Positions 16,522 through 45,162 of a stretch of DNA of 46,790 nucleotides are shown here, piece after piece. Numbering within the stretch: the stretch's first letter is position 1; each line of letters begins with the position of its first letter. Source of the DNA: Candidatus Saccharimonadota bacterium (GTDB lineage Bacteria > Patescibacteriota > Saccharimonadia > Saccharimonadales > Saccharimonadaceae); the NCBI GenBank assembly GCA_037140095.1, contig JBAXFD010000001.1:1-46790 (forward strand), written 5' to 3'. Position numbers and translations under genes: made by a program. Below the pieces are notes generated by a model, which saw only the letters and a program-made list of their open reading frames with translations, did no database searches and had not been told where the DNA came from.

Positions 16522-16556
16522 GAGGCAGACACTCTAACCAGCTGAGTTACTGGCCC
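16480..16556 (-). tRNA. tRNA-Lys (anticodon CTT), CCA encoded
   Basis: Reverse complement: GGGCCAG-TA-ACTC-AGCTGGTTA-GAGT-G-TCTGC-CTCTTAA-GCAGA-ATGTC-GTGGG-TTCAAGT-CCCAC-CTGGCCC-T-CCA. Confidence 0.85.
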
Positions 16557-30494: not shown

Positions 30495-31538
30495 ATGAAG
30501 GAATTTGATTGTAGTTGTAACCCAAAAACAGCATGGCTTACTCTGAATCGTCAATGTAATTTTCGTTGTCGTTGGTGTTATGGTGAGGATACTCATTATG
30601 ACCCGAAAGAGACAATGTCGCTTGCAATGGCCAAAGAGTTGGTTATGGTCGCGCATGAAATGGGAGTGGATCACTTTAATGTCATAGGCGGAGAACCTAC
30701 ATTATGGCCTGATCTTTTGGAATTTAATAGGTTTTGCAAAGACCTGGGTGTTACTAATTGTATTGTTACTAATGCAGCGTTGTTTGGTGATGACAGCTTT
30801 TGGGCAGAATATCAACAAAGTCCGTGCGATAACGTTTCTATATCCGTTAAAGCAGTTGGGCTTGAGCAATTTAAAGATGCTACCAAGGTTGGGATCTATG
30901 ATCAAACGATGAAGGGGATTGAAAGGGCAATTAATTTCTATCAAACTGGCGTCAGCACTGTATATAACAGTCTTGTCGGTATGGATGGATTAAAGCAAAT
31001 TGCTACTTTATGTCATGAACTTGGTGCAAAATCTTTCTTGGTTGACCTATGTTGTCCTGTAATTACTGACGAGGGCGTGTCTCTGGGATATTCTATTGAG
31101 CCGCATCAACTGGCGAATGACATCATGGAGATGCATCCATTTTTGGACGAATTGTACAATGGTAAAATCGAGATCGAGACCTACATCCCACTATGTTTAT
31201 TCCCTGAATCATTCATAGAAAAAATGCTGGGATCACGCCAAATAGCAACCATTTGTCATGTTTATGGTCGTAGTGGCCTTAATTTTGACACCAATGGTGA
31301 TGTTATGGCATGTAATCAATTACTGGGGAGCATTATAGCTCAAAAAGGGATAGACTATAATGACGGAACCAGTCTTTCAGAGCATCTTAATAGTGATGAA
31401 CTAAAGGAAGATTACAAGCAACTTCTACGCTATCCATCAGAAGAGTGTGATAAATGTCGTTGGAACGTATATTGTCGCGGGGGATGCCTAATCAACTGGA
31501 TGATATTTGATCCATCTATGTGCCACGCCATAAAGTGA
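30495..31538 (+). CDS. radical SAM/SPASM domain protein (peptide-modifying maturase candidate)
   Basis: CNFRCRWC (CxxxCxxC, residues 21-28). C-terminal SPASM: C-x13-G-x4-C then CDKCRWNVYCRGGC (Cx2Cx5Cx3C). AAGGAGGA SD. Confidence 0.85.
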   Translation: MKEFDCSCNPKTAWLTLNRQCNFRCRWCYGEDTHYDPKETMSLAMAKELVMVAHEMGVDHFNVIGGEPTLWPDLLEFNRFCKDLGVTNCIVTNAALFGDDSFWAEYQQSPCDNVSISVKAVGLEQFKDATKVGIYDQTMKGIERAINFYQTGVSTVYNSLVGMDGLKQIATLCHELGAKSFLVDLCCPVITDEGVSLGYSIEPHQLANDIMEMHPFLDELYNGKIEIETYIPLCLFPESFIEKMLGSRQIATICHVYGRSGLNFDTNGDVMACNQLLGSIIAQKGIDYNDGTSLSEHLNSDELKEDYKQLLRYPSEECDKCRWNVYCRGGCLINWMIFDPSMCHAIK

Positions 31539-32526: not shown

Positions 32527-32672
32527 AAAGTTCATTTGCAAGGTCCGACCCTGCAATGAGATCCTGAGATTTGGAAAAGAGCAGCCCAAGCAGCGGATTC
32601 ATTCCGTGCGTGGCGCGATGAGAAAAAACCTTGGGTTTGTCTAATGGGGTTTCTAGGACGGACCCCGCAAAG
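32525..32672. repeat. MITE/REP-like intergenic repeat, copy 3 (full length)
   Basis: Near-identical left end to copy 2; right end CTAGGACGGACCCCGCAAAGG. Confidence 0.75.
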
Positions 32673-32682
32673 GTATTCCAAG

Positions 32683-32691
32683 TGGTATAAT
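32683..32691 (+). promoter_or_regulatory. extended -10 box TGGTATAAT, 6 nt upstream of the ATG at 32698 (leaderless-type)
   Basis: tggtataat-ttatcc-ATG. Confidence 0.45.
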
Positions 32692-32697
32692 TTATCC

Positions 32698-33375
32698 ATG
32701 ATCAAGGTTAATTTATTAGTAGCAAATGCGAACGATAACTTTTCATCTAATCAGTTAGATATTTTTAATCAAGCGGTTGTAGCGGTAGAGAAATTTATCG
32801 CTGATAATTTTGATTTGGACTATGAGGTTGATGTGGTTGTTGTTTCGCCTTCTTATTTATTAAAGACAATTCCCGAAGACGGCATCGGCGGCAGAACGTA
32901 TCGGTCAGATTTAATAGTGATTACTGTTGATACAGAATCGGAATTATCCGAAGATTTCTTCTACGAGACATTGTGCCATGAATTGTCTCATTCAATCCGT
33001 TGGAATCAAGTGTCGGAACATACGGTAACATTATTAGATGATATTGTGTTGGAGGGTCTGGCAATAGTGTTAGAAGAAAAGGCGATGAACGATAGCGGTA
33101 GGCCCAATGTTCAATATTTTTTGAAACAAATGCATGCAATGGACGAGCAGACTGCTAATGATATTTTGGCTAATTTGAAAAATAAACTTAATGACAAAGA
33201 ATATGATTACGAAAAGACATTTATTAGTGGTGATGAAGATCTGCCGAGATGGGCCGGTTATAAATTAGGCTATTGGCTAATTAAAGAGTCATTGGCCAAT
33301 AAATGCACAGAAATTGCCAGCGCAACATTGGATAGCTATAAAAATCTGAAAAATAATTTAAAAACCCCATCGTGA
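32698..33375 (+). CDS. putative Zn-dependent protease (HExxH; DUF2268-like)
   Basis: ...ETLCHELSHSIRWN... The track start 32644 lies inside the repeat, so ATG 32698 is preferred. Confidence 0.55.
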   Translation: MIKVNLLVANANDNFSSNQLDIFNQAVVAVEKFIADNFDLDYEVDVVVVSPSYLLKTIPEDGIGGRTYRSDLIVITVDTESELSEDFFYETLCHELSHSIRWNQVSEHTVTLLDDIVLEGLAIVLEEKAMNDSGRPNVQYFLKQMHAMDEQTANDILANLKNKLNDKEYDYEKTFISGDEDLPRWAGYKLGYWLIKESLANKCTEIASATLDSYKNLKNNLKTPS

Positions 33376-34119: not shown

Positions 34120-35256
34120 ATGAATGAAAATAGCAAATATGCGAAACCGTTAGATCTCTCAATTAAAACACCTTATCTACTGATTAACTTGGATAAGATT
34201 TGTGAATCGTATAATAAAATATCAAAGTTTTTTGAAGATATTGAGATTTTTTATGCCATCAAGGCAAATCCAAATCCAAAAATTATGAAGACTGTTTTGG
34301 ATTGCGGGAGCGGATTTGAGATTTCTTCTGCTTTTGAAATGTTCAAAGCTCTAGAGGCTGGCGAGAAGCCTGAGAGGATATTGTTTAGCAACCCAATTAA
34401 AACATTTGATGATATAAAAGCGGCTTTTGATGCAGGGGTGCAGTATTTTGCCTTCGATAGCATTAGTGAAATCGATAAACTAGCCGAAGCCGCACCAAAC
34501 GCTAAAGTTTATGTTCGGCTATCAATACCGGTTCGAAAAAGCACGGTTGCGAGCGAGGGTAAGTTCGGGGTATCAATAGAGCAAGCACTAGACCTAATGG
34601 TCTATGCAAAGAGCAAGGGGCTCGTACCATACGGAGTGTCCTTCCATGTAGGTTCACAAATGCTAGACAACGACTCTTGGGGTTATGGTATACAGCATAG
34701 CGCCAAATTGTTCAACATGCTCAAGAAGAAAGGTATAAAATTAGAATTCTTGGATATAGGTGGTGGATTCCCTGTTTGTTACCAGGATGTTCAGCGTGAT
34801 AATTTGGACAAGATATCCAAGATAATTCTAAAATCAGTCAAAAAGTATTTGCCCAAAGGGACTCGGGTTGTGGCCGAGCCAGGCCGATATATTGTTGCCG
34901 AGTCTGGCACCATGGTTAGCTCGGTTATTGGTACCGCTGAGAGGTTTGGCAAGAAATGGTTGCATTTAGATGTTGGGGCGAATAACGGGATGATGGAAGC
35001 AGTCCAGACTTCAAACGCCTTGCTGTTCCCTGTCGGTGATTCATGTAGGTCTTCAGAAAAAGAGATATTTACACTAACTGGCCCTACCTGCGATAGTCAA
35101 GATACAATATTATTTGATGTGCCAGTTTCATCCAATATACAGATTGGTGATATTATATATTTCGAATTCGCTGGTTCATACACGACAGCCATGACAGAAA
35201 ACTTTAATGGGTTCCCAGACCCCGAGACTTTGATAGTAGATAATCGTAAAGGTTAA
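34120..35256 (+). CDS. PLP-dependent ornithine/lysine/DAP decarboxylase family (group IV, ODC-like)
   Basis: FYAIKANPNP (PLP Lys), HVGSQ, GGGFPV, EPGRYIV and GPTCDSQD. Confidence 0.85.
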   Translation: MNENSKYAKPLDLSIKTPYLLINLDKICESYNKISKFFEDIEIFYAIKANPNPKIMKTVLDCGSGFEISSAFEMFKALEAGEKPERILFSNPIKTFDDIKAAFDAGVQYFAFDSISEIDKLAEAAPNAKVYVRLSIPVRKSTVASEGKFGVSIEQALDLMVYAKSKGLVPYGVSFHVGSQMLDNDSWGYGIQHSAKLFNMLKKKGIKLEFLDIGGGFPVCYQDVQRDNLDKISKIILKSVKKYLPKGTRVVAEPGRYIVAESGTMVSSVIGTAERFGKKWLHLDVGANNGMMEAVQTSNALLFPVGDSCRSSEKEIFTLTGPTCDSQDTILFDVPVSSNIQIGDIIYFEFAGSYTTAMTENFNGFPDPETLIVDNRKG

Positions 35257-35258
35257 TT

Positions 35259-36488
35259 ATGGCTGACGGAAAATCTAAAGATAACAACGAAAAAAGTTTT
35301 ACGCCTATTGAAAAATTAGAATTGAATGCAGAACGTCCTGCAGTTGATTTTAATAGCTATGCCGAGATATGTAATTACAATAACGACAGTTCTAGGCGTC
35401 GTGGGATATTATCACCAGAAATGTATGCTGATATTATTCAGGATGATAGTACTGGTTTTATAGAATCAGATGGGGTGCAAATACCAGCGTTGATAGACAT
35501 TAAACATGGTCTAGCTATGGGTTACGATGCCGATAAATGTAAAAAATATGCCGAGGAAATATCTGATAATGTAAAAATTTTATCCGTTCCGTTCCACGAA
35601 TTGGATGAATCAGAAAAAGAACAGGTTACAAAATTATTGCAAGAAAATGGTAAATGCGCGATTTATTTTTGCGATCACGAGAATGATGAATCTATGGCTT
35701 TGGGCGAATATTTGAAAAAACATGATATAGAATTTTCTGAAAAACCATTGATTGATACGAGAGCCGCAGCAGGAGACGAGCAGGCAGCGTTGTCTCTATA
35801 CTCTTGTTTTGTTGAAAATACAAATGAGTATTCAGGAGACAAGCCTGTTGATTTACGCGATATAAAAGATTATTTTGATAAAAATATTGGTCCAGTTATT
35901 TCTGATAGTGGTAAAACGGCAACAACTCTAAATATGGGAGACAATATCTCTGATGATGAAGCTGATGAGATGTGGAAAATATTTAATTCTAGATTTGATT
36001 TTCTTGGGGAGAACCACCCATTATCAATGCAGGATACAAAGGATGATTTTTTATTACCGCTAAGGTCAAAAGATTCAATTATAGCAGCCACATATAATAT
36101 AGATGAAGATGGGTCGGCAAGACAGCTGGTTTGTTTTACTTATTTTATAAATAATGTAGACAGTTTATATTGGCTTAATAGTAAATATATAGAGCAAGAG
36201 TTTATAATAGATTCTGGTAAAAGGAGTGGTGTTATTAATATCTATACACCAGGTTTAGTTTCTTCTGCAGTTGGGGCTAGCTATGCGTCATTACCGATTG
36301 GTCTATTTACGACCGTATGTGATTCAGCGGGTATCAGTGACAATGTATTATATGAGAACACTAATTTTTCTAAGAGATATATACCTAGGATTGTTGATCG
36401 AGCAACAAGTAGAGCGTGCAAGGGGTCTCTTTATCACAAATCTAAAATCATTGATGAAGTTACATATCGTTTGTGGTCTATAAGCTAA
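35259..36488 (+). CDS. hypothetical protein
   Basis: 409-aa ORF starting 2 nt after the decarboxylase stop (same operon). No motif recognised. Confidence 0.5.
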   Translation: MADGKSKDNNEKSFTPIEKLELNAERPAVDFNSYAEICNYNNDSSRRRGILSPEMYADIIQDDSTGFIESDGVQIPALIDIKHGLAMGYDADKCKKYAEEISDNVKILSVPFHELDESEKEQVTKLLQENGKCAIYFCDHENDESMALGEYLKKHDIEFSEKPLIDTRAAAGDEQAALSLYSCFVENTNEYSGDKPVDLRDIKDYFDKNIGPVISDSGKTATTLNMGDNISDDEADEMWKIFNSRFDFLGENHPLSMQDTKDDFLLPLRSKDSIIAATYNIDEDGSARQLVCFTYFINNVDSLYWLNSKYIEQEFIIDSGKRSGVINIYTPGLVSSAVGASYASLPIGLFTTVCDSAGISDNVLYENTNFSKRYIPRIVDRATSRACKGSLYHKSKIIDEVTYRLWSIS

Positions 36489-37473
36489 GTGGTTTTATAG
36501 TCTTTTTCTCTAAAAAGCGGGAAGGTGGTAAATGTTCTTTGAAGCTCCTTAAACCCTCTATGCCAAGATCTTGTTCAATGTTTATTTCTCCAATATTATC
36601 TTTTTCTAGTATTTTTGATAGTTGATAAACTGTGAAATAGAAGATGTATTTTATAGAATAATCAACTTTTAGATGGTTACCCCCAGCGGTATCATTATCT
36701 AAGTAAGAGACTAGACCCAATGAGGTAATTTTACCATTTATTTTTATTATTAAAGCCTTCTTGCCAAATTGTGAGGCGTATTTCATATTATTTTTTATGG
36801 CAATTGGTTCATTGATATTATTTGCCGCTGAGAATGGGTTATTATTCATAGGCATTGTCTTTATGTGTTTTAGGAACGCTTTTTTGATTTGATTATTAAA
36901 CTTTTTATAGTAAAGTATTTCTATTTTATCCTTTGCGTGTTCTTTTTCGAATAGTTTAATTCTTCTGCGTTGGTCACTAAAATATTTACCATTCATCAAA
37001 CACTGCTGACGTGTATCTAATATATATTCATAGCTATCACGATCATCTTCTATAATCCATTTATTTTTATCTAGTTTGTCGCATATTTTTGAAGGTATTT
37101 CACGGATCTCAAGTGGTAGGTTATGTTGTTTTAAATATTTCATTATATCTTCAATAACTTTGTCGCTAATGGAATTAGCAATCGGGATTATGTTAAACTT
37201 ATTGTCATTTAATACATTAGTATATTTGATTATCAAAGTATCATTTAAATCACTGATCATTAAGTCATTTTTCATATTAAGCCAAGCTATCATATTCTCT
37301 GGATGTAAGTCAGCGTAAGGGTTTATACCTTGACTTATATAATATTCATAATACCAATCACTGTCTTTGATGGTAAAAGGTCTGAATTTTGGAAATTTTG
37401 GTATTGTTTTGGCCATTTTATATTTGTGATATTCTGTTATTTTACCGAATTGCTTATGTATACACGGTAGCAT
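36478..37473 (-). CDS. DUF2156-like protein (MprF C-terminal / aminoacyl-tRNA-dependent transferase fold)
   Basis: FRPFTIKDSDWYYEYY...YADLHPENMIAWL... and C-terminal NIEQDLGIEGLRSFKEHLPPS fit the DUF2156 pattern. An alternative start is ATG 37416. Confidence 0.55.
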   Translation of the reverse strand: MLPCIHKQFGKITEYHKYKMAKTIPKFPKFRPFTIKDSDWYYEYYISQGINPYADLHPENMIAWLNMKNDLMISDLNDTLIIKYTNVLNDNKFNIIPIANSISDKVIEDIMKYLKQHNLPLEIREIPSKICDKLDKNKWIIEDDRDSYEYILDTRQQCLMNGKYFSDQRRRIKLFEKEHAKDKIEILYYKKFNNQIKKAFLKHIKTMPMNNNPFSAANNINEPIAIKNNMKYASQFGKKALIIKINGKITSLGLVSYLDNDTAGGNHLKVDYSIKYIFYFTVYQLSKILEKDNIGEINIEQDLGIEGLRSFKEHLPPSRFLEKKTIKPLSL

Positions 37474-37493
37474 TTATCAGTTACAATATCAAC

Positions 37494-39671
37494 GTGGACA
37501 TAGCATTATTCTTAATTAATTTGTTTTCGATTGTTGGTATATTTGCCATCGCTGCAATTATACTGATGAGCGGCTTTAGTAGGCAGAAGTTGTTTTTTGC
37601 ATTGTTTATAGGCTCTTTGTGTGTCTGGTTGTTACTTCAATGTTCTGCACAGTTTTTTTCATTGAACGGAGAGATAGGCTTAAGATTAATTCAAATCGAC
37701 TCGTTAATCCCTTTTGTGTCAGCTTTGCTATTTCTTTTCTTCATTAGAGAATATTTAGGCAAGAGTATCCCCAAAAAAATATATGTTTTTTCCTTAATAT
37801 TTACTATTGCAGAGATTTTTTTAAATATATCTGGCTTAATGATTCAGGAAGCCTGGGGTGAGCCAGCTGGAGTGGTTACTAATAAATTTACAGAATTATA
37901 TTTAATATATTCACTAGTAATTGGTTTGGTTTTTTTGGTGCCTATAATACAATTGATAAAAAATAGTTTATCTAACAAAATAGAGAAAGAGAAGTCTCGT
38001 AATAGATTGATAATTATTGCAATATTACAAATTGTGATTATTTCAATATTGTCGGCCTTTTTGCTTTCATCATCTGCGATAGCACAAATGACAACGCCGA
38101 TATCTATATTAATAATGGCCGTTATGATTGGTTTTGCAATAATAAGGCATGGTTTATTCGACATAAAATCCGCAATTATCCGCACCTCTGCCTATGCCTT
38201 GTCGCTAATAACTTTGGCGGCGGTTTATTTTGGGCTGGCGTATTTGACTTCAATGATTATGTTCAGCGGGCAGTCTTCGCAAGCTGTCAGTGTGAATCCC
38301 GTAAATATTATCCTGGCGCTGTTGTTAGCGTTTATATTCCAACCGGTTAAACGTTTCTTTGACAAAATCACCAATAAGATATTTTACAAAGACAATTACA
38401 ACACTGACGACTTCTTTGCGAAGTTGAATAAGATTTTAGGGTTTACTACGGATTTGAGAGGATTACTGGAGCATACGGCGACTACGATAGGGCAGACACT
38501 GAAAGGCGAACAGGCTTTCTTCTTTATCAATATGGGCGATGGACATTATGTTACGGCCGGGTCGCCAAAACATAAGGTCCTGCCAAAATCTGATGCTGAT
38601 CAATTAGGCACGGTTCCGCCAACTAAAAACGGCGTTATTATTGCTTCGTTATTAGAAGATGCAGATCCAATAAAACGATTGATGATATCGCATCGAATCG
38701 AATTGGTTCTACTGCTAGTACAAGATGGCAAGGCGCTGGGATATCTGTGTCTGGGTGATCATTTGACTTCTAGCTATACTAACCGCGATATTAAAGTGTT
38801 GAACACGATTTCTAACGAATTAATCATTGCCATTCAAAACGCCCTAGCAGTGCAAGAAATTCGCGAATTTAATATCACGTTGCAACAGCGAATTGCCAAT
38901 GCAACCAGGGAACTGCGTGCCAGTAACGCTCAATTGCGTCATCTGGATAAAGCAAAGGACGAGTTCCTCAGCATGGCCTCACACCAGCTACGAACGCCGC
39001 TGACCAGCGTCAAAGGCTATATATCAATGATTATGGATGGCGACGCCGGCAAGGTCACTAGTGACCAAAAGAAGCTATTGGGTGAGGCATTCGGTAACAG
39101 CGAACGCATGGTCGGGTTAATCAACGATTTTCTATCTGTTTCGCGTATTCAAACTGGTAGGTTCGTAATCGATAAAACCCCATTAGATTTATCATTGGTG
39201 GTCGAACAAGAAACTAACAGTTTGAAACAAAACGCCAGCGCCCGTCAGATGGAATTGGTATATGAGAAACAACCAGATTTCCCAATGTTGGATATAGATG
39301 AGGGCAAGATTCGCCAGGTCATAATGAATTTCATAGACAACGCTATCTATTATTCACATCCAGGCACGTCAATTAATGTCAGTATGCAGGTCCAGGGCAA
39401 AGACGTGGTGTTTACAGTAAAAGATACCGGCATTGGTGTTCCGGCTAGCGAACGCGACGAATTGTTTACGAAATTTTATCGAGCCAGCAATGCCAAGAAA
39501 ACGCGCCCAGATGGTACCGGTGTTGGGCTGTTTTTGGCAAAGAAAATTGTTGATGACCACGACGGCAAAATTATATTTGAATCAGTAGAGGGTAAGGGAA
39601 GTACGTTCGGTTTTAGTCTACCAATAAAAGAATTAGCTGCCGCTGACCAGGCCGACGATTTGAAAAATTAG
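37494..39671 (+). CDS. membrane sensor histidine kinase
   Basis: Multi-TM N-terminus, H-box SHQLRTPL, N-box NFIDNAIYY, G1 VKDTGIGV and G2 GTGVGL. GTG 37494 sits 6 nt after a TACAAT box. The track start 37389 overlaps the convergent-start gene. Confidence 0.85.
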   Translation: MDIALFLINLFSIVGIFAIAAIILMSGFSRQKLFFALFIGSLCVWLLLQCSAQFFSLNGEIGLRLIQIDSLIPFVSALLFLFFIREYLGKSIPKKIYVFSLIFTIAEIFLNISGLMIQEAWGEPAGVVTNKFTELYLIYSLVIGLVFLVPIIQLIKNSLSNKIEKEKSRNRLIIIAILQIVIISILSAFLLSSSAIAQMTTPISILIMAVMIGFAIIRHGLFDIKSAIIRTSAYALSLITLAAVYFGLAYLTSMIMFSGQSSQAVSVNPVNIILALLLAFIFQPVKRFFDKITNKIFYKDNYNTDDFFAKLNKILGFTTDLRGLLEHTATTIGQTLKGEQAFFFINMGDGHYVTAGSPKHKVLPKSDADQLGTVPPTKNGVIIASLLEDADPIKRLMISHRIELVLLLVQDGKALGYLCLGDHLTSSYTNRDIKVLNTISNELIIAIQNALAVQEIREFNITLQQRIANATRELRASNAQLRHLDKAKDEFLSMASHQLRTPLTSVKGYISMIMDGDAGKVTSDQKKLLGEAFGNSERMVGLINDFLSVSRIQTGRFVIDKTPLDLSLVVEQETNSLKQNASARQMELVYEKQPDFPMLDIDEGKIRQVIMNFIDNAIYYSHPGTSINVSMQVQGKDVVFTVKDTGIGVPASERDELFTKFYRASNAKKTRPDGTGVGLFLAKKIVDDHDGKIIFESVEGKGSTFGFSLPIKELAAADQADDLKN

Positions 39672-39823
39672 TTTTAGTATTGCTATTAAATAAAATATGT
39701 TATAAAGATATTGTATTTTAAGGTGTTCTGTGATAAATTTATTGATAAATGGGATGAAGTATTCTCATAGTATTTTTATATGTCATACCATTCCCGAATA
39801 ACTAGTGAAAGAAGGTGAGCAAT

Positions 39824-39931
39824 TTGAAGACTAGACTTGGTAAGAGGTCATGTGTTGTGTTTGCAGGTAATCGTAACCGCATCATCGCAACACGTGAGTC
39901 TACTGGCGCTTTTAAGTATAAGGCCCAGTAA
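39824..39931 (+). CDS. 35-aa basic peptide, candidate RiPP precursor (TTG start; not in ORF track)
   Basis: (M)KTRLGKRSCVVFAGNRNRIIATRESTGAFKYKAQ. GAAGGTGAG SD lies 5 nt upstream, and an in-frame GTG at 39815 is an alternative start. It lies 88 nt upstream of an RRE-containing radical SAM gene. Confidence 0.35.
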   Translation: MKTRLGKRSCVVFAGNRNRIIATRESTGAFKYKAQ

Positions 39932-39964
39932 TTGTATTTGTCAGCCATCGTTGTTTGGTCACTT

Positions 39965-39991
39965 GACGGCAGGCCCCTGGGGCTTGTCGTC
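39965..39991 (+). other. GC-rich intercistronic hairpin between peptide ORF and radical SAM gene
   Basis: GACGGCAGGCCCC-t-GGGGCTTGTCGTC (two G-U pairs), with no following T-run. Confidence 0.45.
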
Positions 39992-40019
39992 GGACCATAA
40001 AAATTAGGAGGTTTTTTAA

Positions 40020-41384
40020 ATGCTTATTAATTCCAGAGGTGATAATCACCTAGTAGTTAGACCGGACGTTTTGCAATGGGCTATTGTTAATGATACTGGC
40101 TTGGATATAGCCAAGCTTCTTTTTGATGAAGGATTCTCAGTCTCACAGGTCGTTTCGTCGTTATCGGCGGACTATACCAAAGAAGATGTTGAGGAGATGT
40201 GTCAAGAATTGTTGTCGTTGTTTCAGGCTAGCACAGATGAAATTTTCGAAACAACCAAGTCTTTAACTTCGAAAACGACAATTGCTATGATCGCTTTGAC
40301 GGATGTTTGTAATTTGGAATGTCCTCATTGTTATGTTGATGCGAATACTGATGTTGGTCAAGAATTAAGCTTGTCCGAACACAGAGTTATCGCCAACAAA
40401 CTGAAAGAGCAATTGGCTACGAATATCGATACAAAGTATGGGGTTGCATTAACTGGTGGTGAACCGTTTTTGAAATCCGATATTGTCGATATAATCAAGG
40501 CTTATCAGTCGGAAGGTCTAGGAGTAACAATCAGCACGAATGGATTACTGATAACTGAAGATCAAGCTAGATTTTTAGCTGATTCGGATGTTAGTATCTC
40601 GATATCATTAGACGGACCAAACGCTGGTACTCATGATATGATCCGCGGAGAGGGCAACTTTGACCGTGTTATTGATCAAATCAATATGATTGTAGATTGT
40701 GGTGTTCGTGTCGGTATCAATCATCTGGTCCATGAAGCCAATTTTGACCATTTGGAAGAAACCATTACTCTAGCTTACGAGCTTGGCTGTAATGGTTTTA
40801 ATCCTATGAATTTGGTCCAACTTGGCAGAGCTTGCGATTCTCCATTGAAAAGAGTATTGGAAACACAAATCTTCAAGAGGATCGCGGATCACTTGGTTGC
40901 TAATCCAGAAGAATTGTTCTTGTTTGAAAAGACCTCATTGTTTTCATCAATGGGCGCAGCTTTACTCTCTGGTGTAACTTGCAGTTCGTGCGGTTTAGGT
41001 GAGAGACCCTGTGTCTATATCGATTCGATAGGTCGGGTTTTCCCCTGCGCTAATACCCAAAATGATAGATTTTTATTGGGTAATGTCAGGGACAAGTCTT
41101 TGTCTGATATTCTGCCAGTCGATCATCCAATTTTGCAAGAACTGCGATTGCTAAAAGTTGATACTTTGAATGATAAGTGTTCAAAGTGCCAAGTTCGTAG
41201 TTTTTGTGGAGGAGATTGCAGGGGAGAAACTTATGGTGTGACAGGTGATATTCGTGCGCCGTATGTGGCGTGCCAAGATCGTCACGATTCTATCATTGAA
41301 ATGATGTGGATAGTGGCAGAATATCCTGAACTGTTTGAAACGCGTGCGAATGAATTCACGTTTAACGCTCATCTGTCAGTTTAA
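40020..41384 (+). CDS. radical SAM/SPASM maturase with N-terminal PqqD-like RRE domain
   Basis: The N-terminal ~85 aa (VVRPDVLQWAIVNDTGLDIAKLLFDEGFSVSQVVSSL...EEMCQELLSLF) are PqqD-like. Also CNLECPHC and C-terminal CSKCQVRSFCGGDC. TAGGAGG SD. Confidence 0.85.
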   Translation: MLINSRGDNHLVVRPDVLQWAIVNDTGLDIAKLLFDEGFSVSQVVSSLSADYTKEDVEEMCQELLSLFQASTDEIFETTKSLTSKTTIAMIALTDVCNLECPHCYVDANTDVGQELSLSEHRVIANKLKEQLATNIDTKYGVALTGGEPFLKSDIVDIIKAYQSEGLGVTISTNGLLITEDQARFLADSDVSISISLDGPNAGTHDMIRGEGNFDRVIDQINMIVDCGVRVGINHLVHEANFDHLEETITLAYELGCNGFNPMNLVQLGRACDSPLKRVLETQIFKRIADHLVANPEELFLFEKTSLFSSMGAALLSGVTCSSCGLGERPCVYIDSIGRVFPCANTQNDRFLLGNVRDKSLSDILPVDHPILQELRLLKVDTLNDKCSKCQVRSFCGGDCRGETYGVTGDIRAPYVACQDRHDSIIEMMWIVAEYPELFETRANEFTFNAHLSV

Positions 41385-41426
41385 AAAAAGTATTGGGTCA
41401 TTGAAATGTAGCCCGGTACCGTCAGA

Positions 41427-41915
41427 TTAAATACTTTTTTCCATTTCCAGCTCGCCTACTAGCGAGCTGTTTTTAATTTCTGAAAATCCAATTTTTTTGT
41501 ATAAATTAATAGCTATCGTGTTTTCGTTCAATACGCTAAGGTAGATTTTTCTGACGCTATGGTTTGTTTTGGCATAATCCATAATAAAATCCATAGATTT
41601 TTTTCCGATACCCTTACCCTTGGCGGCATCATTCAAAACTATGAATACTTCGCCGGTTTTAAATGTTGGGTCTATGTTCATCAAGCCAACCATGCCGCAT
41701 GGTTCACCATTGTTATAGACTATGAAAAAATATTTGGTTTTTTCAGTTTCATATTTTTTAAACCACTCTATATTATCAGATGGGGATATTTTATTGTCTA
41801 ATCCAATTAGCTCACAGTTTTTGCCATCATTAACAATCGTGGCTCTATATTGAATATTGCCTTCATTTAGGGGCTCGAATTTTAGTAAGTTGTTATAGTC
41901 TGTTCTGTCATTCAT
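41427..41915 (-). CDS. GNAT family N-acetyltransferase
   Basis: ...LNDAAKGKGIGKKSMDFIMDYA... (acetyl-CoA binding motif A). Confidence 0.8.
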   Translation of the reverse strand: MNDRTDYNNLLKFEPLNEGNIQYRATIVNDGKNCELIGLDNKISPSDNIEWFKKYETEKTKYFFIVYNNGEPCGMVGLMNIDPTFKTGEVFIVLNDAAKGKGIGKKSMDFIMDYAKTNHSVRKIYLSVLNENTIAINLYKKIGFSEIKNSSLVGELEMEKSI

Positions 41916-42346: not shown

Positions 42347-43564
42347 TTATTTTTTCAACGACACACGACGGCTGGTAACGAAGTAAACGATACCAGTAAT
42401 CAATGCACCAAGACCCAATAATGCGGCGATGTTCTCGCCAGGACCAGTGTATGGAAGTTTACCTGGGGTTACCGGGGGAACGACTGGAGGAACAACTGGT
42501 GTACATACTTTTGGGACAGTAACAACGGCGGTATCTTCACGAGTGACGTTACCGGTTGTGACTGCAGCTTTGTTGGTTAGGGTATTAACACCACAATTTT
42601 TTAGATCGTTGTTTTTGGCAACTCGCGCGCTAAATATAACTTTAGCATTTGCGCCAGGAGCATATGAACCGATGTTTATACCAATACCATTTGCAATGTT
42701 ATCGCTGGCAGGGGTACCCGTTGGGTGGTTGCCGTTGCGGTAACTGGTCGAATGCATTTCGTAAGTTTGGCCAGCAGGTAATGTGTCACGAACAGTGACG
42801 TTATCTTGCTGTACTTGGCCTATGTTTTTGTATTCAATCATGTAATCAACTAATTCACCTGGTTGGGCTGTGTAGTTTTCTACCCATTGATTCAAGCCGT
42901 GTTTACTGACAGTTTTGCTGACAGTAAAGTTTGAAGTTTTGGTAAACTGAGGCTTAACAGTAAAGGAAACATATCCAGCGTAATAAATACAACCTGGGAT
43001 TTTGCCGCCTTGTAAATTGTCAAAACCGATTCGTGCACCAGTACTGGTGAAAATGCTTTCAGGTAATGGTGTACCATCTGTAAAGTGGTTATTTCGGTAT
43101 TTCAAACTGTTATCAACATATGACAAGTTGAATTCCGTGCTGCCGTTGAAAGTAGCATGGTCATAAACTTCGTTAGGTGTTGCGTTAGTTGAATTCAAAA
43201 AACCGTTTACTTGGATAGATTTTGCTGTGTTGGTTGGCAGGTTGAACCTAGCCGTTACGTTTTCAGCTACCAATTTTAATTTGGATTCTGCGTCGTTATG
43301 AACATACATACGAACGTCGTAGCTTTTACCTTCAGCGACAGTCATATTGTCCGTCCATAGGCCATTTGTACCAGTTTCTCGGATACCAACGAAATTTCGT
43401 TCGTCACCACCGATGTTTGGGTTGTCTGTTATTGAGTTAAATGTTATATGGTTGGCTGGTATTTCCATCGTGAATGTATCACGACTAGGTCCCCAGGCTA
43501 ACAATGTTGCCGGGATGATAATTGCTAATGCAATCATCACCACAAGGGCGATTAATTTTTTCAT
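42347..43564 (-). CDS. LPXTG-anchored surface protein with DUF11-type repeat domain
   Basis: Signal/TM N-terminus, ...PGELVDYMIEYKNIGQVQQDNVTVRDTLPAG... (DUF11-like), and C-terminal LPYTGPG plus a hydrophobic stretch plus RRVSLKK. GGAG SD before ATG 43564. Confidence 0.75.
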   Translation of the reverse strand: MKKLIALVVMIALAIIIPATLLAWGPSRDTFTMEIPANHITFNSITDNPNIGGDERNFVGIRETGTNGLWTDNMTVAEGKSYDVRMYVHNDAESKLKLVAENVTARFNLPTNTAKSIQVNGFLNSTNATPNEVYDHATFNGSTEFNLSYVDNSLKYRNNHFTDGTPLPESIFTSTGARIGFDNLQGGKIPGCIYYAGYVSFTVKPQFTKTSNFTVSKTVSKHGLNQWVENYTAQPGELVDYMIEYKNIGQVQQDNVTVRDTLPAGQTYEMHSTSYRNGNHPTGTPASDNIANGIGINIGSYAPGANAKVIFSARVAKNNDLKNCGVNTLTNKAAVTTGNVTREDTAVVTVPKVCTPVVPPVVPPVTPGKLPYTGPGENIAALLGLGALITGIVYFVTSRRVSLKK

Positions 43565-43729
43565 TATATAATTCTCCATTCTTGGCTAATCTCGCAGATT
43601 CGGCCAAAGTTAATCCGCCGAAACTTTTTTGCAAAAGTTTAGGAGGACAAGTTAATAGTTTCTAGTTTAGGATCCACCGACATTTCATAGAAATTTTGGT
43701 GGACAGGTCTTGGTGCCGTGTTGTTAAAT

Positions 43730-43898: not shown

Positions 43899-44966
43899 TT
43901 AGACTGTCCCGGTATTCACGTTGCCCGTGCCTTCACCAGGTTCTGGTGATGGGATTGGGGCTGGTGTTGTTTTTGGTACCTGTGTGCCTTTCGGTACTGG
44001 AGTTATAACCACAACCTTTGGAGTTGGGTCGACTCGAGGTACCGACGTTGTATCCGCCATTTTGTCTTTCGGGATAGCTTTTCCTGGTCCTTTGGTGTCA
44101 TTTTTACCGCCGATGCTGTCCATTATCTTTTTGACTAAGGCAGCCGGATCCTTGGAAGGATCTTTTGGGCTAGGTAAAACTAACTGTAAATTGCCGCATG
44201 GACCTCTAAAGCACAGAACTGCACCGCTACTAGGTGATGCAAAGAACGTTAGCATCTCTCCTGGGTAGCCTTTTCGCACTCCGGAATATGTTACTATCCC
44301 ATTGTGTATCGAGGTGTTCCCAGCATAGTAGAATACTATCGTTGATTGCCCGCTGCTCCAATTGGAAGCGTCCGCCATTTCTGACTTCGTGCTTCTTGCT
44401 AGGATCAGCGATGCGTTTAGTGCCGCTGTGCCATTTGGTGATCTACCAAACAAAAAGTTGATAGATTCTGACGGTGTTCTAGTCCCACTGTACGTGTAAC
44501 TTCCATGGCCAGCCTTTGACTTATCTTTCGATATGTCGATATCTTTGCCTTTTTTTAGGTCCTTGTCTTTCCAGCCTTTTTTCTTTAACGCGTTATCAAT
44601 CTTTTTCTGGATTTCTGGTTTTGTTGTAGGGGCTAGAGTTGGGGCTGGGGTCGCAGTAGGCGTAGTTGTTGGTGCTGGAGTTGCTGTCGACGCTAGCGTC
44701 GGTTCAGCTGTTGCTGTGGGCGCAGTTGTTGGTTCCGGAGTCGCTGTCGGTGCTGGTTTCGGCAAATACATTATTATCACTATTATCAATGCCAAAACAA
44801 ACAGTGGGATCAATACTTTTAACGACTTGTTGTCATTAACTATCTGCCTTGATGTCACTGATACATTCCGTAACCAATCACGTAACCAATCAAAATTAAT
44901 ATTTTTGAATGGCTTAATTAACACTTTCCAAAACTTTTCAAAATCTTGCAAAAATCTATTCATCAT
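43899..44966 (-). CDS. membrane-anchored Pro/Thr/Ala-rich surface protein
   Basis: AGGAGGAATT-ATGATG at 44966, TM helix VLIPLFVLALIIVIIMYL, and a PTATPEPTTAPTATAEPT... linker. The track start 45104 is unlikely. Confidence 0.6.
   Translation of the reverse strand: MMNRFLQDFEKFWKVLIKPFKNINFDWLRDWLRNVSVTSRQIVNDNKSLKVLIPLFVLALIIVIIMYLPKPAPTATPEPTTAPTATAEPTLASTATPAPTTTPTATPAPTLAPTTKPEIQKKIDNALKKKGWKDKDLKKGKDIDISKDKSKAGHGSYTYSGTRTPSESINFLFGRSPNGTAALNASLILARSTKSEMADASNWSSGQSTIVFYYAGNTSIHNGIVTYSGVRKGYPGEMLTFFASPSSGAVLCFRGPCGNLQLVLPSPKDPSKDPAALVKKIMDSIGGKNDTKGPGKAIPKDKMADTTSVPRVDPTPKVVVITPVPKGTQVPKTTPAPIPSPEPGEGTGNVNTGTV
44625..44765. repeat. imperfect tandem repeat encoding the Pro/Thr/Ala-rich linker
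   Basis: Repeated units of the type GTTGTTGGTGCTGGAGTTGCTGTCG... on the plus strand. This explains the Gly/Val/Ala-rich antisense track ORF 44533..45015. Confidence 0.5.
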
Positions 44967-45040
44967 AATTCCTCCTAATAATATATATTTTTTGCTTGTG
45001 CGTTTACCACCATAATCGCACGGCCTCCAAATATAAAATC

Positions 45041-45091
45041 TCAGAGGCAGCACACCGGGTTGGAATGTCCAGTCCAGGGTGCTGTCTCTGA
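45041..45091 (-). other. 13-bp stem-loop in the ~190-nt leader of gene 43899..44966
   Basis: TCAGAGGCAGCAC ... GTGCTGTCTCTGA (one G-U), with an inner TGGA/TCCA stem. Confidence 0.4.
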
Positions 45092-45162
45092 AAGAGGTGA
45101 TCAAAATAGATAAATGTAGAGAAAGTCCACTAATTTAACCTATACAATTACATATCTTTTCA

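What the first reader, a model, noticed from the sequence alone, without database searches (positions are those of the whole stretch)
39824..41384. RRE-containing radical SAM/SPASM maturase preceded by a short basic peptide ORF and a GC-rich hairpin (candidate RiPP locus 2)
ORF 40020..41384 begins with ~85 aa that look like a PqqD-type RiPP recognition element. These are followed by CNLECPHC and a C-terminal CSKCQVRSFCGGDC SPASM motif. An RRE strongly implies a peptide substrate.

The only plausible ORF in the 348-nt upstream gap starts at TTG 39824, with a GAAGGTGAG SD 5 nt upstream and an in-frame GTG at 39815. It encodes (M)KTRLGKRSCVVFAGNRNRIIATRESTGAFKYKAQ and ends 88 nt before the maturase. 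A GACGGCAGGCCCC/GGGGCTTGTCGTC hairpin lies in between, which is typical of precursor/enzyme stoichiometry control.

The peptide has only one Cys. The chemistry could therefore be non-thioether, for example an aromatic-to-side-chain crosslink at FKYK, or epimerisation; that is speculation. A GNAT acetyltransferase lies convergent downstream.
Basis: partly seen in the sequence, partly recalled or inferred. Interest (0 to 1): 0.65.

Follow-up and report, generated by a model that had tools for sequence, protein, structure and literature searches.

The report
Uncharacterised radical SAM peptide-maturation cassette
A tiny unannotated gene for a 35-residue basic peptide sits in front of a radical SAM enzyme that has a peptide-binding domain; the same pair recurs in about fifteen mostly candidate-phyla-radiation genomes with an almost invariant peptide tail, so it is a real, apparently undescribed peptide-modification system whose chemistry is unknown.

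Summary
Its main inference, that the small ORF is the substrate of an RRE-containing radical SAM/SPASM enzyme, holds up against related loci.

- **Enzyme (40020..41384):** it has the CX3CX2C motif and a full seven-Cys SPASM motif. The N-terminal 70 residues are modelled with three strands then three helices. Their best structural matches are solved RiPP recognition elements: CteB N-terminus, TbiB1 and lasso-peptide B1.
- **Co-occurrence:** all 15 orthologous loci with upstream DNA (46-63% identical enzymes) carry a homologous small ORF directly upstream. Its consensus is hhhx-GN-x5-A-x-REAIGAMKYK[AGS][QE]-stop. Invariant residues use 2-5 different codons.
- **Hairpin:** each of the 10 orthologous loci folded, and both distant relatives, has a strong GC-rich stem-loop between peptide and enzyme genes. 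The position is conserved but the sequence is not.
- **Accessory gene:** a GNAT acetyltransferase (9/15 loci, including the window) or a class I methyltransferase (4/15).
- **Prior description:** none found. The peptide matches no Pfam or NCBIfam model, the enzyme reaches no family-specific NCBIfam cutoff, and no paper holds the motif.
- **Chemistry:** no Cys is conserved, so thioether formation is unlikely. Only Gly-Asn, Glu and Tyr are invariant (a second Gly has one exception), which points to Tyr- or Glu-centred chemistry. That is inference.

I read it as a new variant of radical SAM RiPP systems.

The parts
39742..39771 (+). Candidate sigma-70-like promoter (TTGATA, 18 nt, CATAGT) in the AT-rich gap upstream of the small ORF
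   Evidence: Consensus scan, 9 of 12 matches. Weak: the scan found 11 such sites in the region against 7.8 expected from shuffles.
39811..39819 (+). Shine-Dalgarno sequence of the peptide gene (GAAGGTGAG)
   Evidence: Read directly. The equivalent position reads GGAGGTGA in L160 and L161, 5 nt before the TTG.
39824..39931 (+). Precursor-peptide gene: 35 aa from TTG 39824 (38 aa if GTG 39815 is used), (M)KTRLGKRSCVVFAGNRNRIIATRESTGAFKYKAQ
   Evidence: Homologous small ORF directly upstream of the enzyme in 15/15 orthologous loci. 28 homologous clusters with E down to 7e-18. The gene is not called on the public contigs that carry this enzyme.
39866..39928 (+). Conserved part of the peptide: GNRNRIIATRESTGAFKYKAQ (family consensus GNRxVIRASREAIGAMKYKAQ). 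It probably holds the site or sites of modification.
   Evidence: G, N, A, R, E, A, K, Y and K are invariant in 11 loci while using 2-5 codons each. Across distant relatives only GN, E and Y stay fully invariant; the second Gly has one exception. It is the only copy of the motif in the window.
39956..39997 (+). GC-rich stem-loop between the peptide and enzyme genes (18 pairs, loop CUG, no T-run after it)
   Evidence: z = -4.19, 0/200 shuffles as stable. A comparable stem-loop is at the same position in L001-L007, L160, L161, L162 and L163, with unrelated sequences.
40006..40011 (+). Shine-Dalgarno sequence (AGGAGG) of the radical SAM gene, 8 nt before the ATG
   Evidence: Read directly.
40020..41384 (+). 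Radical SAM/SPASM peptide maturase, 454 aa
   Evidence: Pfam Radical_SAM E = 1.1e-24 and SPASM E = 1.1e-7. AF2 pLDDT 91.2. Best PDB fold match is CteB 5wgg, E = 2.8e-18, TM 0.69 over the full length.
40020..40229 (+). N-terminal RiPP recognition element (residues 1-70, three strands then three helices; W20 invariant in the family)
   Evidence: AF2 topology. Foldseek matches to the CteB RRE, TbiB1 and lasso B1, rmsd 2.2-3.4 A. Pfam PqqD sub-threshold.
40308..40331 (+). CX3CX2C motif (C97, C101, C104) for the SAM-binding [4Fe-4S] cluster
   Evidence: Invariant in 37 aligned family members.
40989..41273 (+). SPASM domain with the seven-Cys pattern C324-x13-G338-x4-C343 ... C387-x2-C390-x5-C396-x3-C400 ... 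C418 (two auxiliary clusters expected)
   Evidence: All seven Cys and G338 are invariant or nearly so in alignment A1. Pfam SPASM covers residues 328-391.
41448..41479 (+). Terminator-like hairpin plus T-run after the radical SAM gene, lying inside the 3' end of the convergent GNAT gene
   Evidence: Consensus scan: 8-pair stem followed by TTTTTAATTT.
41427..41915 (-). GNAT acetyltransferase (162 aa), the conserved accessory gene of the cassette
   Evidence: Pfam Acetyltransf_1/3/4. Homologous GNATs adjoin the cassette in 9/15 loci, 27-56% identical to each other with all E <= 3e-16.

Best explanation
The region 39824..41915 is a three-gene peptide-maturation cassette of an undescribed family, found mostly in Patescibacteria (candidate phyla radiation).

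**Shown by tools**
- The small ORF encodes a 35-aa peptide that always accompanies the enzyme.
- The enzyme has an N-terminal RRE-like domain, a radical SAM core and a full SPASM domain.

**Inferred mechanism**
1. The peptide is made in excess. The stem-loop at 39956-39997 terminates part of the transcripts or protects the peptide mRNA 3' end.
2. The RRE binds the conserved hydrophobic stretch (CVVF here, HVVF in relatives) as an added beta-strand, as in CteB and the lasso-peptide B1 proteins.
3. The radical SAM cluster cleaves SAM to a 5'-deoxyadenosyl radical, which abstracts a hydrogen from the conserved C-terminal segment (RE-x2-G-x3-Y-K).
4. The two auxiliary clusters take up the electron while a new bond forms.

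No Cys is conserved, and Glu and Tyr are the invariant side chains able to react. The likeliest product therefore carries a carbon-carbon or carbon-oxygen crosslink at the Tyr, either to Glu (PqqE-like) or to a neighbouring basic residue. This chemistry is a guess.

The GNAT, replaced by a methyltransferase in other lineages, then caps an amine or serves as self-protection. No protease or exporter is conserved nearby, so the product may stay in the cell.
For: **Enzyme**
- Radical_SAM and SPASM domains score above Pfam thresholds.
- CX3CX2C and the seven SPASM Cys are invariant in 37 relatives.
- The closest solved structures by sequence profile are CteB (E = 1.4e-30, aligned over 12-435) and SkfB.
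- The closest by fold are CteB, SkfB, SuiB and TigE.
- The RRE fold was modelled twice. The domain model's nine best PDB matches are all RREs.

**Peptide**
- Present in 15/15 orthologous loci, on the same strand, with its stop codon 63-99 nt before the enzyme gene in the loci measured.
- Two distant relatives of the enzyme (33% and 39% identity) also have related peptides.
- Codon analysis: 244 synonymous against 140 non-synonymous pairwise differences in the last 12 codons.
- An exhaustive HMMER search of 1.84 billion representatives found 17 hits. Fifteen are short ORFs of 33-59 aa, one is a 140-aa call with the motif at its C-terminus, and one is a repeat protein.

**Hairpin and accessory genes**
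- A stem-loop was found in every locus folded, with z from -2.2 to -6.3.
- GNAT in 9/15 loci, methyltransferase in 4/15.
Against: - There is no experimental evidence of any modification.
- Sequence-level RRE evidence is below threshold. Pfam PqqD scores 20.2 against 23.4 bits, and the domain profile finds nothing in PDB sequences.
- Foldseek E-values for the isolated domain are modest (4.6e-3 to 0.1).
- The peptide is unlike most RiPP precursors. Its N-terminal part is variable and basic, while the putative core is nearly invariant.
- No protease or transporter is conserved next to the cassette.
- The window's own peptide is the most divergent member (RESTGAFKYKAQ against REAIGAMKYKAQ).
- The start codon (TTG or GTG) is not settled.
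- The window's hairpin lacks a U-tract, so termination there is not assured.
- Only 7 orthologous loci turned up among 185,579 GTDB species representatives, in a scan limited to two exact motifs. The system therefore looks rare.
Confidence: 0.8

Rival explanations
1. The peptide is the precursor of a peptide-derived small-molecule cofactor, analogous to PQQ or mycofactocin. The radical SAM enzyme crosslinks the invariant Glu and Tyr, and host enzymes then trim the rest.
For: - The C-terminal 12 residues are nearly invariant, while the enzymes are only about 50% identical. PqqA and MftA show this pattern; antimicrobial RiPP cores do not (general knowledge).
- Glu and Tyr are the only reactive side chains that stay invariant in distant relatives.
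- No exporter or immunity gene is conserved.
- MftC and PqqE models do hit the enzyme (127.7 and 76.7 bits).
Against: - Both hits are far below the family cutoffs of 265 and 381 bits.
- No PqqB/C/F-like or MftD/E/F-like genes lie next to the cassette in any locus.
- The Glu-to-Tyr spacing is 7 residues, against 4 in PqqA (from memory).
- The Tyr is not C-terminal, unlike in MftA.
- The sporadic distribution argues against a core cofactor.
- No candidate cofactor-dependent enzyme is linked to the cassette.
Confidence: 0.12
2. It is a sactipeptide or ranthipeptide system: the enzyme makes Cys-to-carbon thioether bridges, as its nearest characterised relatives (StsB, CteB, SkfB) do.
For: - The best NCBIfam hit is the StsB sactipeptide maturase family (179.9 bits over residues 6-433).
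- The best solved-structure relatives are the sactisynthases CteB and SkfB.
- The window's peptide has one Cys.
Against: - The Cys is not conserved. That position is H, C, V, T or R, and the neighbouring position is C, F, S or H, across relatives.
- Many family members have no Cys at all, for example MKKKQKKHIIFKGNRNKIRASREAIGAMKYKAQ.
- The StsB score is far below the 625-bit cutoff, and the SCIFF-maturase model scores 80 against 425.
Confidence: 0.03
3. The small ORF encodes a free-standing small basic protein, for example one that binds the ribosome or nucleic acid. It is modified on one residue, or merely co-transcribed, and is not a leader-and-core RiPP precursor. The GNAT would be a RimI/RimJ-type protein acetyltransferase.
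For: - The N-terminus is rich in Lys and Arg, as in small ribosomal proteins.
- There is no protease or exporter.
- In L006 the GNAT-peptide-enzyme cassette sits between secY and adk, inside the ribosomal-protein gene cluster.
- The GNAT hits RimI and RimL models weakly.
Against: - Neither Pfam nor NCBIfam matches any peptide, including ribosomal protein models, at E <= 10.
- The ribosomal-cluster position is seen in one locus only.
- An RRE fused to the enzyme, and strict adjacency, are the hallmarks of peptide substrates.
- If the enzyme modifies it, this reading overlaps with the main explanation and differs only in the fate of the product.
Confidence: 0.05

Closest known systems
CteB / SCIFF maturase (thermocellin sactisynthase, PDB 5wgg/5why)
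   Same: - Same three-part architecture: N-terminal RRE, radical SAM core and SPASM domain with two auxiliary clusters.
- Best match by sequence profile (E = 1.4e-30, aligned over residues 12-435).
- Best match by fold (E = 2.8e-18, TM 0.69).
- The RRE alone superposes at 2.2-2.4 A rmsd.
   Different: - Only about 18-20% identical.
- The SCIFF-maturase model TIGR03974 scores 80 against a cutoff of 425.
- The substrate has no conserved Cys, whereas SCIFF peptides have six.
StsB (GggB) family, streptosactin maturase (NCBIfam NF045574)
   Same: Highest-scoring curated family (179.9 bits), aligned across almost the whole protein including the N-terminal domain. It also has a short precursor gene directly upstream of the enzyme, as in streptococcal radical SAM RiPP loci (general knowledge).
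   Different: - The score is far below the 625-bit cutoff.
- The precursor is unrelated and lacks the Cys donors.
- The hosts are candidate-phyla-radiation bacteria, not streptococci.
- No quorum-sensing regulator or exporter is adjacent.
PqqE/PqqA/PqqD (PQQ) and MftC/MftA/MftB (mycofactocin)
   Same: - A radical SAM/SPASM enzyme uses a PqqD-type RRE to act on a very short peptide.
- The peptide is highly conserved, and its reactive residues include Tyr (and Glu in PQQ).
   Different: - The RRE is fused here rather than separate.
- The family models score well below their cutoffs (76.7 against 381; 127.7 against 265).
- No downstream processing genes are present.
- The residue spacing differs, and the Tyr is not C-terminal.
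Cyclophane-forming radical SAM RiPP systems with a GNAT (HaaN of the His-aromatic cyclophane family; YhhB/XyeB triceptide maturases)
   Same: A radical SAM/SPASM maturase is combined with a GNAT tailoring enzyme and an aromatic residue in a short conserved motif. Both GNATs tested here, the window's and L007's, touch the HaaN model faintly (E = 0.03-0.07).
   Different: - The HaaN hit is insignificant (about 13-14 bits against a cutoff of 250).
- YhhB scores 85 against 445.
- The residue two positions after the Tyr is Ala, Gly or Ser, so a three-residue aromatic-to-beta-carbon cyclophane cannot be general here: Gly has no beta-carbon.

Membership tests
Radical SAM / SPASM subfamily | CX3CX2C motif for the SAM-binding cluster | tested here: met
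   C97/C101/C104 are invariant in 37 sequences. Pfam Radical_SAM scores 87.9 bits against a cutoff of 29.5.
Radical SAM / SPASM subfamily | Seven-Cys SPASM pattern (C-x9-15-G-x4-C, then C-x2-C-x5-C-x3-C, then C) | tested here: met
   C324, G338, C343, C387, C390, C396, C400 and C418 are all invariant or nearly so. Pfam SPASM scores 32.4 bits against 21.5.
RiPP recognition element (PqqD-like) | Pfam PqqD (PF05402) at or above its gathering score | tested here: not met
   20.2-20.4 bits against 23.4, E about 7e-4. Only 3 of 27 family members hit it at all.
RiPP recognition element (PqqD-like) | Winged helix-turn-helix fold: a three-stranded sheet followed by three helices | tested here: met
   AF2 models of the full protein (pLDDT 91) and of the domain alone (pLDDT 86) both give strands 2-6, 9-14 and 19-23 and helices 25-36, 41-48 and 54-68. 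This is a prediction, not a solved structure.
RiPP recognition element (PqqD-like) | Closest structural neighbours are known RREs | tested here: met
   The top nine Foldseek PDB matches are the CteB N-terminus, TbiB1 and lasso B1, followed by ThcOx and McbB. E = 4.6e-3 to 0.1, rmsd 2.2-3.4 A.
RiPP recognition element (PqqD-like) | Binds the leader region of the precursor peptide | not testable with these tools
   This needs a binding assay. Co-folding of enzyme and peptide was not possible with the tools on hand.
RiPP biosynthetic gene cluster (radical SAM class) | A short precursor gene adjacent to and co-occurring with the maturase | tested here: met
   15/15 orthologous loci, plus 2/2 distant relatives.
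RiPP biosynthetic gene cluster (radical SAM class) | Leader peptidase and/or exporter in the cluster | tested here: not met
   None is conserved within 3-4 kb in any locus. The only recurrent neighbours are a GNAT or a methyltransferase.
StsB sactipeptide maturase family (NF045574) | Score at or above the curated cutoff (625 bits) | tested here: not met
   179.9 bits.
Sactipeptide / ranthipeptide systems | Conserved Cys donors in the precursor | tested here: not met
   No Cys column is conserved, and several members have no Cys.
PqqE / PQQ pathway | TIGR02109 at or above its cutoff, and pqqB/C/F-type neighbours | tested here: not met
   76.7 bits against 381. No such neighbours are present.
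PqqE / PQQ pathway | Precursor with conserved Glu and Tyr that become crosslinked | tested here: inconclusive
   Glu and Tyr are both invariant, but at a different spacing (E-x6-Y). Whether they are crosslinked is unknown.
Mycofactocin maturase MftC | TIGR03962 at or above its cutoff, and a precursor ending in Val-Tyr | tested here: not met
   127.7 bits against 265. The peptide ends in K-Y-K-[AGS]-[QE].

The most novel reading that the evidence does not exclude
The cassette makes a conserved, intracellular, peptide-derived product in candidate-phyla-radiation bacteria. This would be either a new redox cofactor built from the invariant Glu and Tyr, or a crosslinked small basic protein with a housekeeping partner. 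It would not be a secreted antimicrobial. Such a product would explain three things: the near-invariant 12-residue tail across enzymes only about 50% identical, the absence of a protease, exporter or immunity gene, and the interchangeable amine-capping enzymes (GNAT or methyltransferase).
Probability: 0.17. Interest if true: 0.85.

Novelty: new variant of a known kind. Interest (0 to 1): 0.62.

Why it matters
- Radical SAM/SPASM enzymes with an RRE are the main source of new peptide chemistry. Each new precursor family has so far brought a new bond type, and this one has a defined motif without Cys or Trp, so its chemistry is probably new or at least unassigned.
- The hosts are mostly candidate-phyla-radiation bacteria with very small genomes, in which few dedicated peptide-modification systems have been described. 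A cassette kept there, with a product sequence held almost constant, suggests a function worth knowing.
- The system is small: a peptide of about 35 aa, one enzyme and one optional tailoring enzyme. It can therefore be tested directly by co-expression and mass spectrometry.
- The peptide gene is not called on the public contigs that carry this enzyme. The finding therefore also shows what annotation misses.

Tried and rejected
1. **First genome scan.** The single-protein scan of genome contigs found no relatives. The repeat with alignment A1 gave 7 orthologous loci plus about 70 distant archaeal AhbD/NirJ-like enzymes that lack the N-terminal domain, which I set aside.
2. **Metagenome scan.** It returned no useful orthologous locus, only a 91-residue fragment (L081).
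3. **RRE by sequence.** A profile of the N-terminal domain alone found nothing meaningful among PDB sequences; the best E was 0.15, to coiled-coil and designed proteins. The RRE call therefore rests on predicted structure.
4. **Is the peptide a known protein?** I considered a divergent known small protein, because of faint resemblances to bL36 (KIIRRKGR...) and CsrA (GNQVRIG...REEI). Pfam and NCBIfam gave no hit for any member at E <= 10. I treat these resemblances as chance.
5. **Double-glycine leader.** Cleavage at G-A would release MKYKAQ. The surrounding residues do not fit the usual motif and no C39 peptidase-transporter is nearby, so I did not pursue it.
6. **Literature.** Four searches (peptide motif strings; Patescibacteria, candidate phyla radiation or Parcubacteria combined with radical SAM, SPASM or RiPP) found no description of this family.
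7. **Taxonomy of the window.** The FolD search returned unnamed metagenomic proteins, and the names given by sources were cut short. Assigning the window to Patescibacteria is inferred from the enzyme's relatives only.
8. **Peptide profile search.** The first attempt failed because the leading sequence was under 40 aa. It was repeated as A3.
Full report
**1. Observation**

- A 454-aa ORF runs from 40020 to 41384 on the + strand.
- A 348-nt gap follows a histidine-kinase gene (37389..39671; HisKA and HATPase_c).
- In that gap, a small ORF ends at 39931. It can start at GTG 39815 or at the in-frame TTG 39824, and GAAGGTGAG lies at 39811-39819.
- From the TTG it encodes (M)KTRLGKRSCVVFAGNRNRIIATRESTGAFKYKAQ.
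- A stem-loop lies between its stop and the next gene. It has 13 pairs (39964-39976 with 39980-39992, loop CUG), extended by five more pairs (39956-39960 with 39993-39997).
- The 101-nt stretch folds at -37.3 kcal/mol against -24.0 +/- 3.2 for dinucleotide-preserving shuffles. That gives z = -4.19, and none of 200 shuffles folds as well.
- AGGAGG at 40006-40011 precedes the ATG by 8 nt.
- A GNAT gene (41427..41915, - strand) converges on the radical SAM gene.

**2. The enzyme**

- Pfam finds Radical_SAM (residues 93-251, E = 1.1e-24) and SPASM (328-391, E = 1.1e-7).
- In an alignment of 37 relatives (A1), the CX3CX2C cysteines (C97, C101, C104) are invariant. So are seven C-terminal cysteines in the canonical SPASM spacing (C324, C343, C387, C390, C396, C400, C418). 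Two auxiliary clusters are therefore expected.
- No NCBIfam model reaches its cutoff. The best is the StsB sactipeptide maturase family (179.9 bits against 625), aligned over residues 6-433. Well behind come heme-related NirJ/AhbD, mycofactocin MftC (127.7 against 265), WgkB, DynA, PapB, the SCIFF maturase and PqqE.
- A profile of A1 against PDB sequences puts CteB first (E = 1.4e-30, aligned over 12-435), then SkfB. SuiB, TigE (8vpo) and PqqE come further down the list.

**3. Is the N-terminal domain an RRE?**

By sequence the evidence is weak.
- Pfam PqqD scores 20.2 bits, below its gathering score of 23.4.
- Only 3 of 27 family members hit PqqD at all.
- A profile of the domain alone finds nothing in PDB sequences.

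By predicted structure the answer is yes.
- The full-length AlphaFold2 model is confident (pLDDT 91.2, pTM 0.90). It shows strands at 2-6, 9-14 and 19-23 followed by helices at 25-36, 41-48 and 54-68.
- The domain modelled alone gives the same topology (pLDDT 86).
- Foldseek with the full model returns CteB (E = 2.8e-18, TM 0.69, 468 columns), SkfB, SuiB and TigE, with anSME interleaved among them. All but anSME are RiPP maturases with N-terminal RREs.
- Foldseek with the domain alone returns only RREs in its first nine places: the CteB N-terminus (rmsd 2.2-2.4 A over 69 columns), TbiB1 bound to its leader peptide, and lasso-peptide B1. ThcOx and McbB follow further down.
- The E-values for that domain search are modest (4.6e-3 to 0.1), as expected for a 70-residue domain.

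I accept the RRE assignment at the level of a structure prediction.

**4. Is the small ORF real?**

This was the decisive test, and it is positive.
- The enzyme has about 50 full-length relatives at 46-63% identity. The ones that carry names are from Andersenbacteria, Parcubacteria, Berkelbacteria and 'Patescibacteria group'. Azambacteria and Komeilibacteria appear among the genome records.
- I obtained DNA upstream of the enzyme gene for 14 relatives: L001-L007, L160, L161, L165 and L169-L172.
- Every one has a homologous small ORF on the same strand directly upstream. The stop-to-start gap is 63-99 nt in the loci measured.
- Examples: MKKKQKKHIIFKGNRNKIRASREAIGAMKYKAQ (L006) and MAASKKTSKKSSHIVFKGNRSVVLATREAIGAMKYKGQ (L171).
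- A profile search of 5.8 billion proteins found 28 clusters (E from 7e-18 to 1.5e-10). All are 33-62 aa and, where named at all, 'hypothetical'. Many sit on contigs whose lengths match those of the enzyme hits.
- An exhaustive HMMER search of 1.84 billion representatives found only 17 hits. Fifteen are short ORFs of 33-59 aa, one is an over-called 140-aa ORF, and one is a spurious repeat protein.
- Across 11 loci the invariant residues (G, N, A, R, E, A, K, Y, K) are encoded by 2-5 different codons each. The last 12 codons show 244 synonymous against 140 non-synonymous pairwise differences. Selection therefore acts on the protein.
- The window holds one copy of the motif.
- The gene is not called on the public contigs that carry this enzyme.

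**5. Anatomy of the peptide (alignment A5)**

- An N-terminal stretch of 8-20 residues varies in length and sequence and is rich in Lys and Arg.
- A hydrophobic stretch follows: HVVF, HIIF, or CVVF in the window.
- Then come invariant Gly-Asn, five variable residues, Ala, Ser/Thr, and REAIGAMKYK[AGS][QE] at or one residue from the C-terminus.
- The window's member is the most divergent (RESTGAFKYKAQ).
- More distant members read REAVGTMRYRAE, REAYGTIHYNSEKG, REAISAMKYKAQ, CEAFGALKYKGE followed by a 35-residue tail (L162; enzyme 39% identical, followed by a second radical SAM gene), and KESQGTMYYRSE (L163; enzyme 33% identical).
- Across all of them only Gly-Asn, Glu and Tyr are fully invariant. 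The second Gly has one exception.
- No Cys position is conserved, and several members have no Cys.

**6. Start codon**

L160 and L161 are the closest relatives (63% identity). They read GGAGGTGAgtactTTG. The GTG is therefore part of a perfect Shine-Dalgarno sequence, and the TTG follows at a normal 5-nt spacing. The window has the same layout (GAAGGTGAgcaatTTG). The gene caller chose the GTG in L160, so the point is not settled.

**7. The hairpin**

- Each of the 10 orthologous loci that I folded, and both distant relatives, has a perfect or near-perfect stem of about 8-17 pairs between the peptide stop and the enzyme's Shine-Dalgarno sequence. Most stems are GC-rich. The z-scores run from -2.2 to -6.3, and the sequences are unrelated.
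- In L002, L005 and L007 the stem is followed directly by a T-run, as in an intrinsic terminator. L006 has a T-rich tract there.
- In the window, L160 and L161 it is not. In the window and L160 an A-run follows.
- A conserved position with a free sequence indicates a structural RNA role. Partial termination, or protection of the peptide mRNA 3' end, are the usual readings for RiPP and bacteriocin operons. Which applies here is inferred.

**8. Accessory genes**

- A GNAT of about 155-170 aa adjoins the cassette in 9 of 15 loci. It is convergent downstream in the window, L160, L161 and L165, and upstream on the same strand in L004-L007 and L169.
- These GNATs are 27-56% identical to each other (all E <= 3e-16). 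Their pairwise identities correlate with those of the enzymes (r = 0.57).
- In four other loci (L002, L003, L171, L172) a class I SAM methyltransferase of about 245 aa takes the convergent downstream position. These are 39-43% identical to each other.
- L163 has a 29-32% identical homologue downstream on the same strand.
- L001 and L170 have neither.
- No protease, transporter or regulator recurs.
- One plausible reading is that two different group-transfer enzymes attached to the same nearly invariant peptide cap the same kind of group, for instance an amine. Self-protection by acetylation is also possible. Neither was tested.

**9. Mechanism proposed**

Shown here:
- the enzyme's domain make-up and cluster motifs;
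- the strict pairing of enzyme and peptide;
- purifying selection on the peptide;
- the conserved stem-loop and the accessory genes.

Inferred:
1. The RRE binds the hydrophobic stretch of the peptide.
2. The 5'-deoxyadenosyl radical abstracts a hydrogen in the conserved C-terminal segment.
3. The auxiliary clusters accept the electron as a new bond forms.

No Cys is conserved, so a thioether is unlikely, even though the closest characterised relatives are sactisynthases. The invariant Tyr and Glu make two products the leading guesses: a crosslink at Tyr, either to Glu as PqqE does or to a neighbouring basic residue as the streptococcal Lys-Trp and Arg-Tyr enzymes do (both from general knowledge). 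A three-residue cyclophane of the triceptide type does not fit, because the residue two positions after Tyr can be Gly. Epimerisation cannot be excluded.

**10. What is unusual**

In typical antimicrobial RiPPs the leader is conserved and the core varies. Here the C-terminal part is held almost constant while the enzymes have diverged to about 50% identity. That pattern is known for PqqA and MftA. Together with the absence of export and cleavage genes, it leaves room for an intracellular product: a cofactor or a modified small protein.

Against a core role, only 7 orthologous loci were found among the 185,579 species representatives of GTDB. That scan depended on two exact motifs, both of which are invariant or nearly so in the family. 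I give the cofactor-like reading about 0.15.

**11. Novelty**

The kind of system is well known: an RRE-dependent radical SAM/SPASM maturase with an adjacent precursor. This family appears undescribed.
- No curated model for either the peptide or the enzyme reaches threshold.
- No paper among about 8.3 million full texts contains the motif strings.
- Searches that combined the host groups with radical SAM, SPASM or RiPP terms found nothing relevant.

These are limits of the libraries searched, not proof of absence. I class the finding as a new variant of a known kind. The substrate motif points to chemistry different from that of the nearest relatives.

**12. Verdict**

- Confidence that the small ORF is the substrate of the RRE-bearing radical SAM/SPASM enzyme: about 0.8.
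- Confidence in any particular chemistry is low.
- Interest: 0.62.

Noticed in passing
window 30495..31538 (+), with neighbours out to 37473: A second radical SAM gene (347 aa) without an N-terminal RRE. It has weak SPASM-type alignments reaching its C-terminus (anSME, DynA and SCIFF-maturase models, all far below cutoff). Downstream lie two proteins with no family match, a DUF2268 Zn-peptidase-like protein (32644..33375), a LysA-like PLP decarboxylase (34120..35256), a 409-aa protein with no family match, and an LPG_synthase_C-like protein (36478..37473, -).
   Followed up: partly
L006:518..6818: In this 27% GC genome the GNAT-peptide-radical SAM cassette sits between what look like secY and adk inside the ribosomal-protein gene cluster (L18, S5, L15, SecY, cassette, Adk, Map). 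The genes were identified by eye from the translations. It is the only locus with this placement.
   Followed up: no
L001:3709..6202: One ortholog lies on a 105-kb contig binned as a Microcoleaceae cyanobacterium. Genes that look like a BrnT/BrnA toxin-antitoxin pair lie just downstream. Its peptide has a long, non-basic N-terminal region. This is either transfer outside the candidate phyla radiation or a binning error. L006 is likewise labelled Gammaproteobacteria.
   Followed up: no
L162:1861..4968: A distant relative (enzyme 39% identical) has the motif internally...RGNSQVIETVCEAFGALKYKGE followed by a 35-residue tail. A second radical SAM gene overlaps the end of the first.
   Followed up: partly
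window 41448..41479 (+): A terminator-like hairpin with a T-run for the radical SAM transcript lies inside the last codons of the convergent GNAT gene.
   Followed up: no
window 6925..10966 (-) and 14860..16556: There is a Type III restriction-modification pair (ResIII helicase, 765 aa; N6_N4 DNA methylase, 583 aa). A large serine recombinase (553 aa) has a 3' end that overlaps a tRNA gene on the opposite strand (16483..16556). This could mark an integrated element.
   Followed up: no
window 42347..43579 (-) and 43899..45104 (-): There is a DUF11-repeat surface protein with a weak LPXTG-anchor match. Next to it is a Pro/Thr-rich 401-aa protein with only a sub-threshold 'New_glue' hit.
   Followed up: no
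window 37389..37473: The mechanical TTG start of the histidine-kinase ORF (760 aa) overlaps the 5' end of the divergent gene 36478..37473. Public gene calls give 725 aa, so the true start is probably further downstream.
   Followed up: no
P0098 (756 aa): A distant relative (25% identity, 96% of the query covered) is a fusion of a class I methyltransferase with a radical SAM/SPASM enzyme. This echoes the methyltransferase that accompanies some cassettes of the present family.
   Followed up: no
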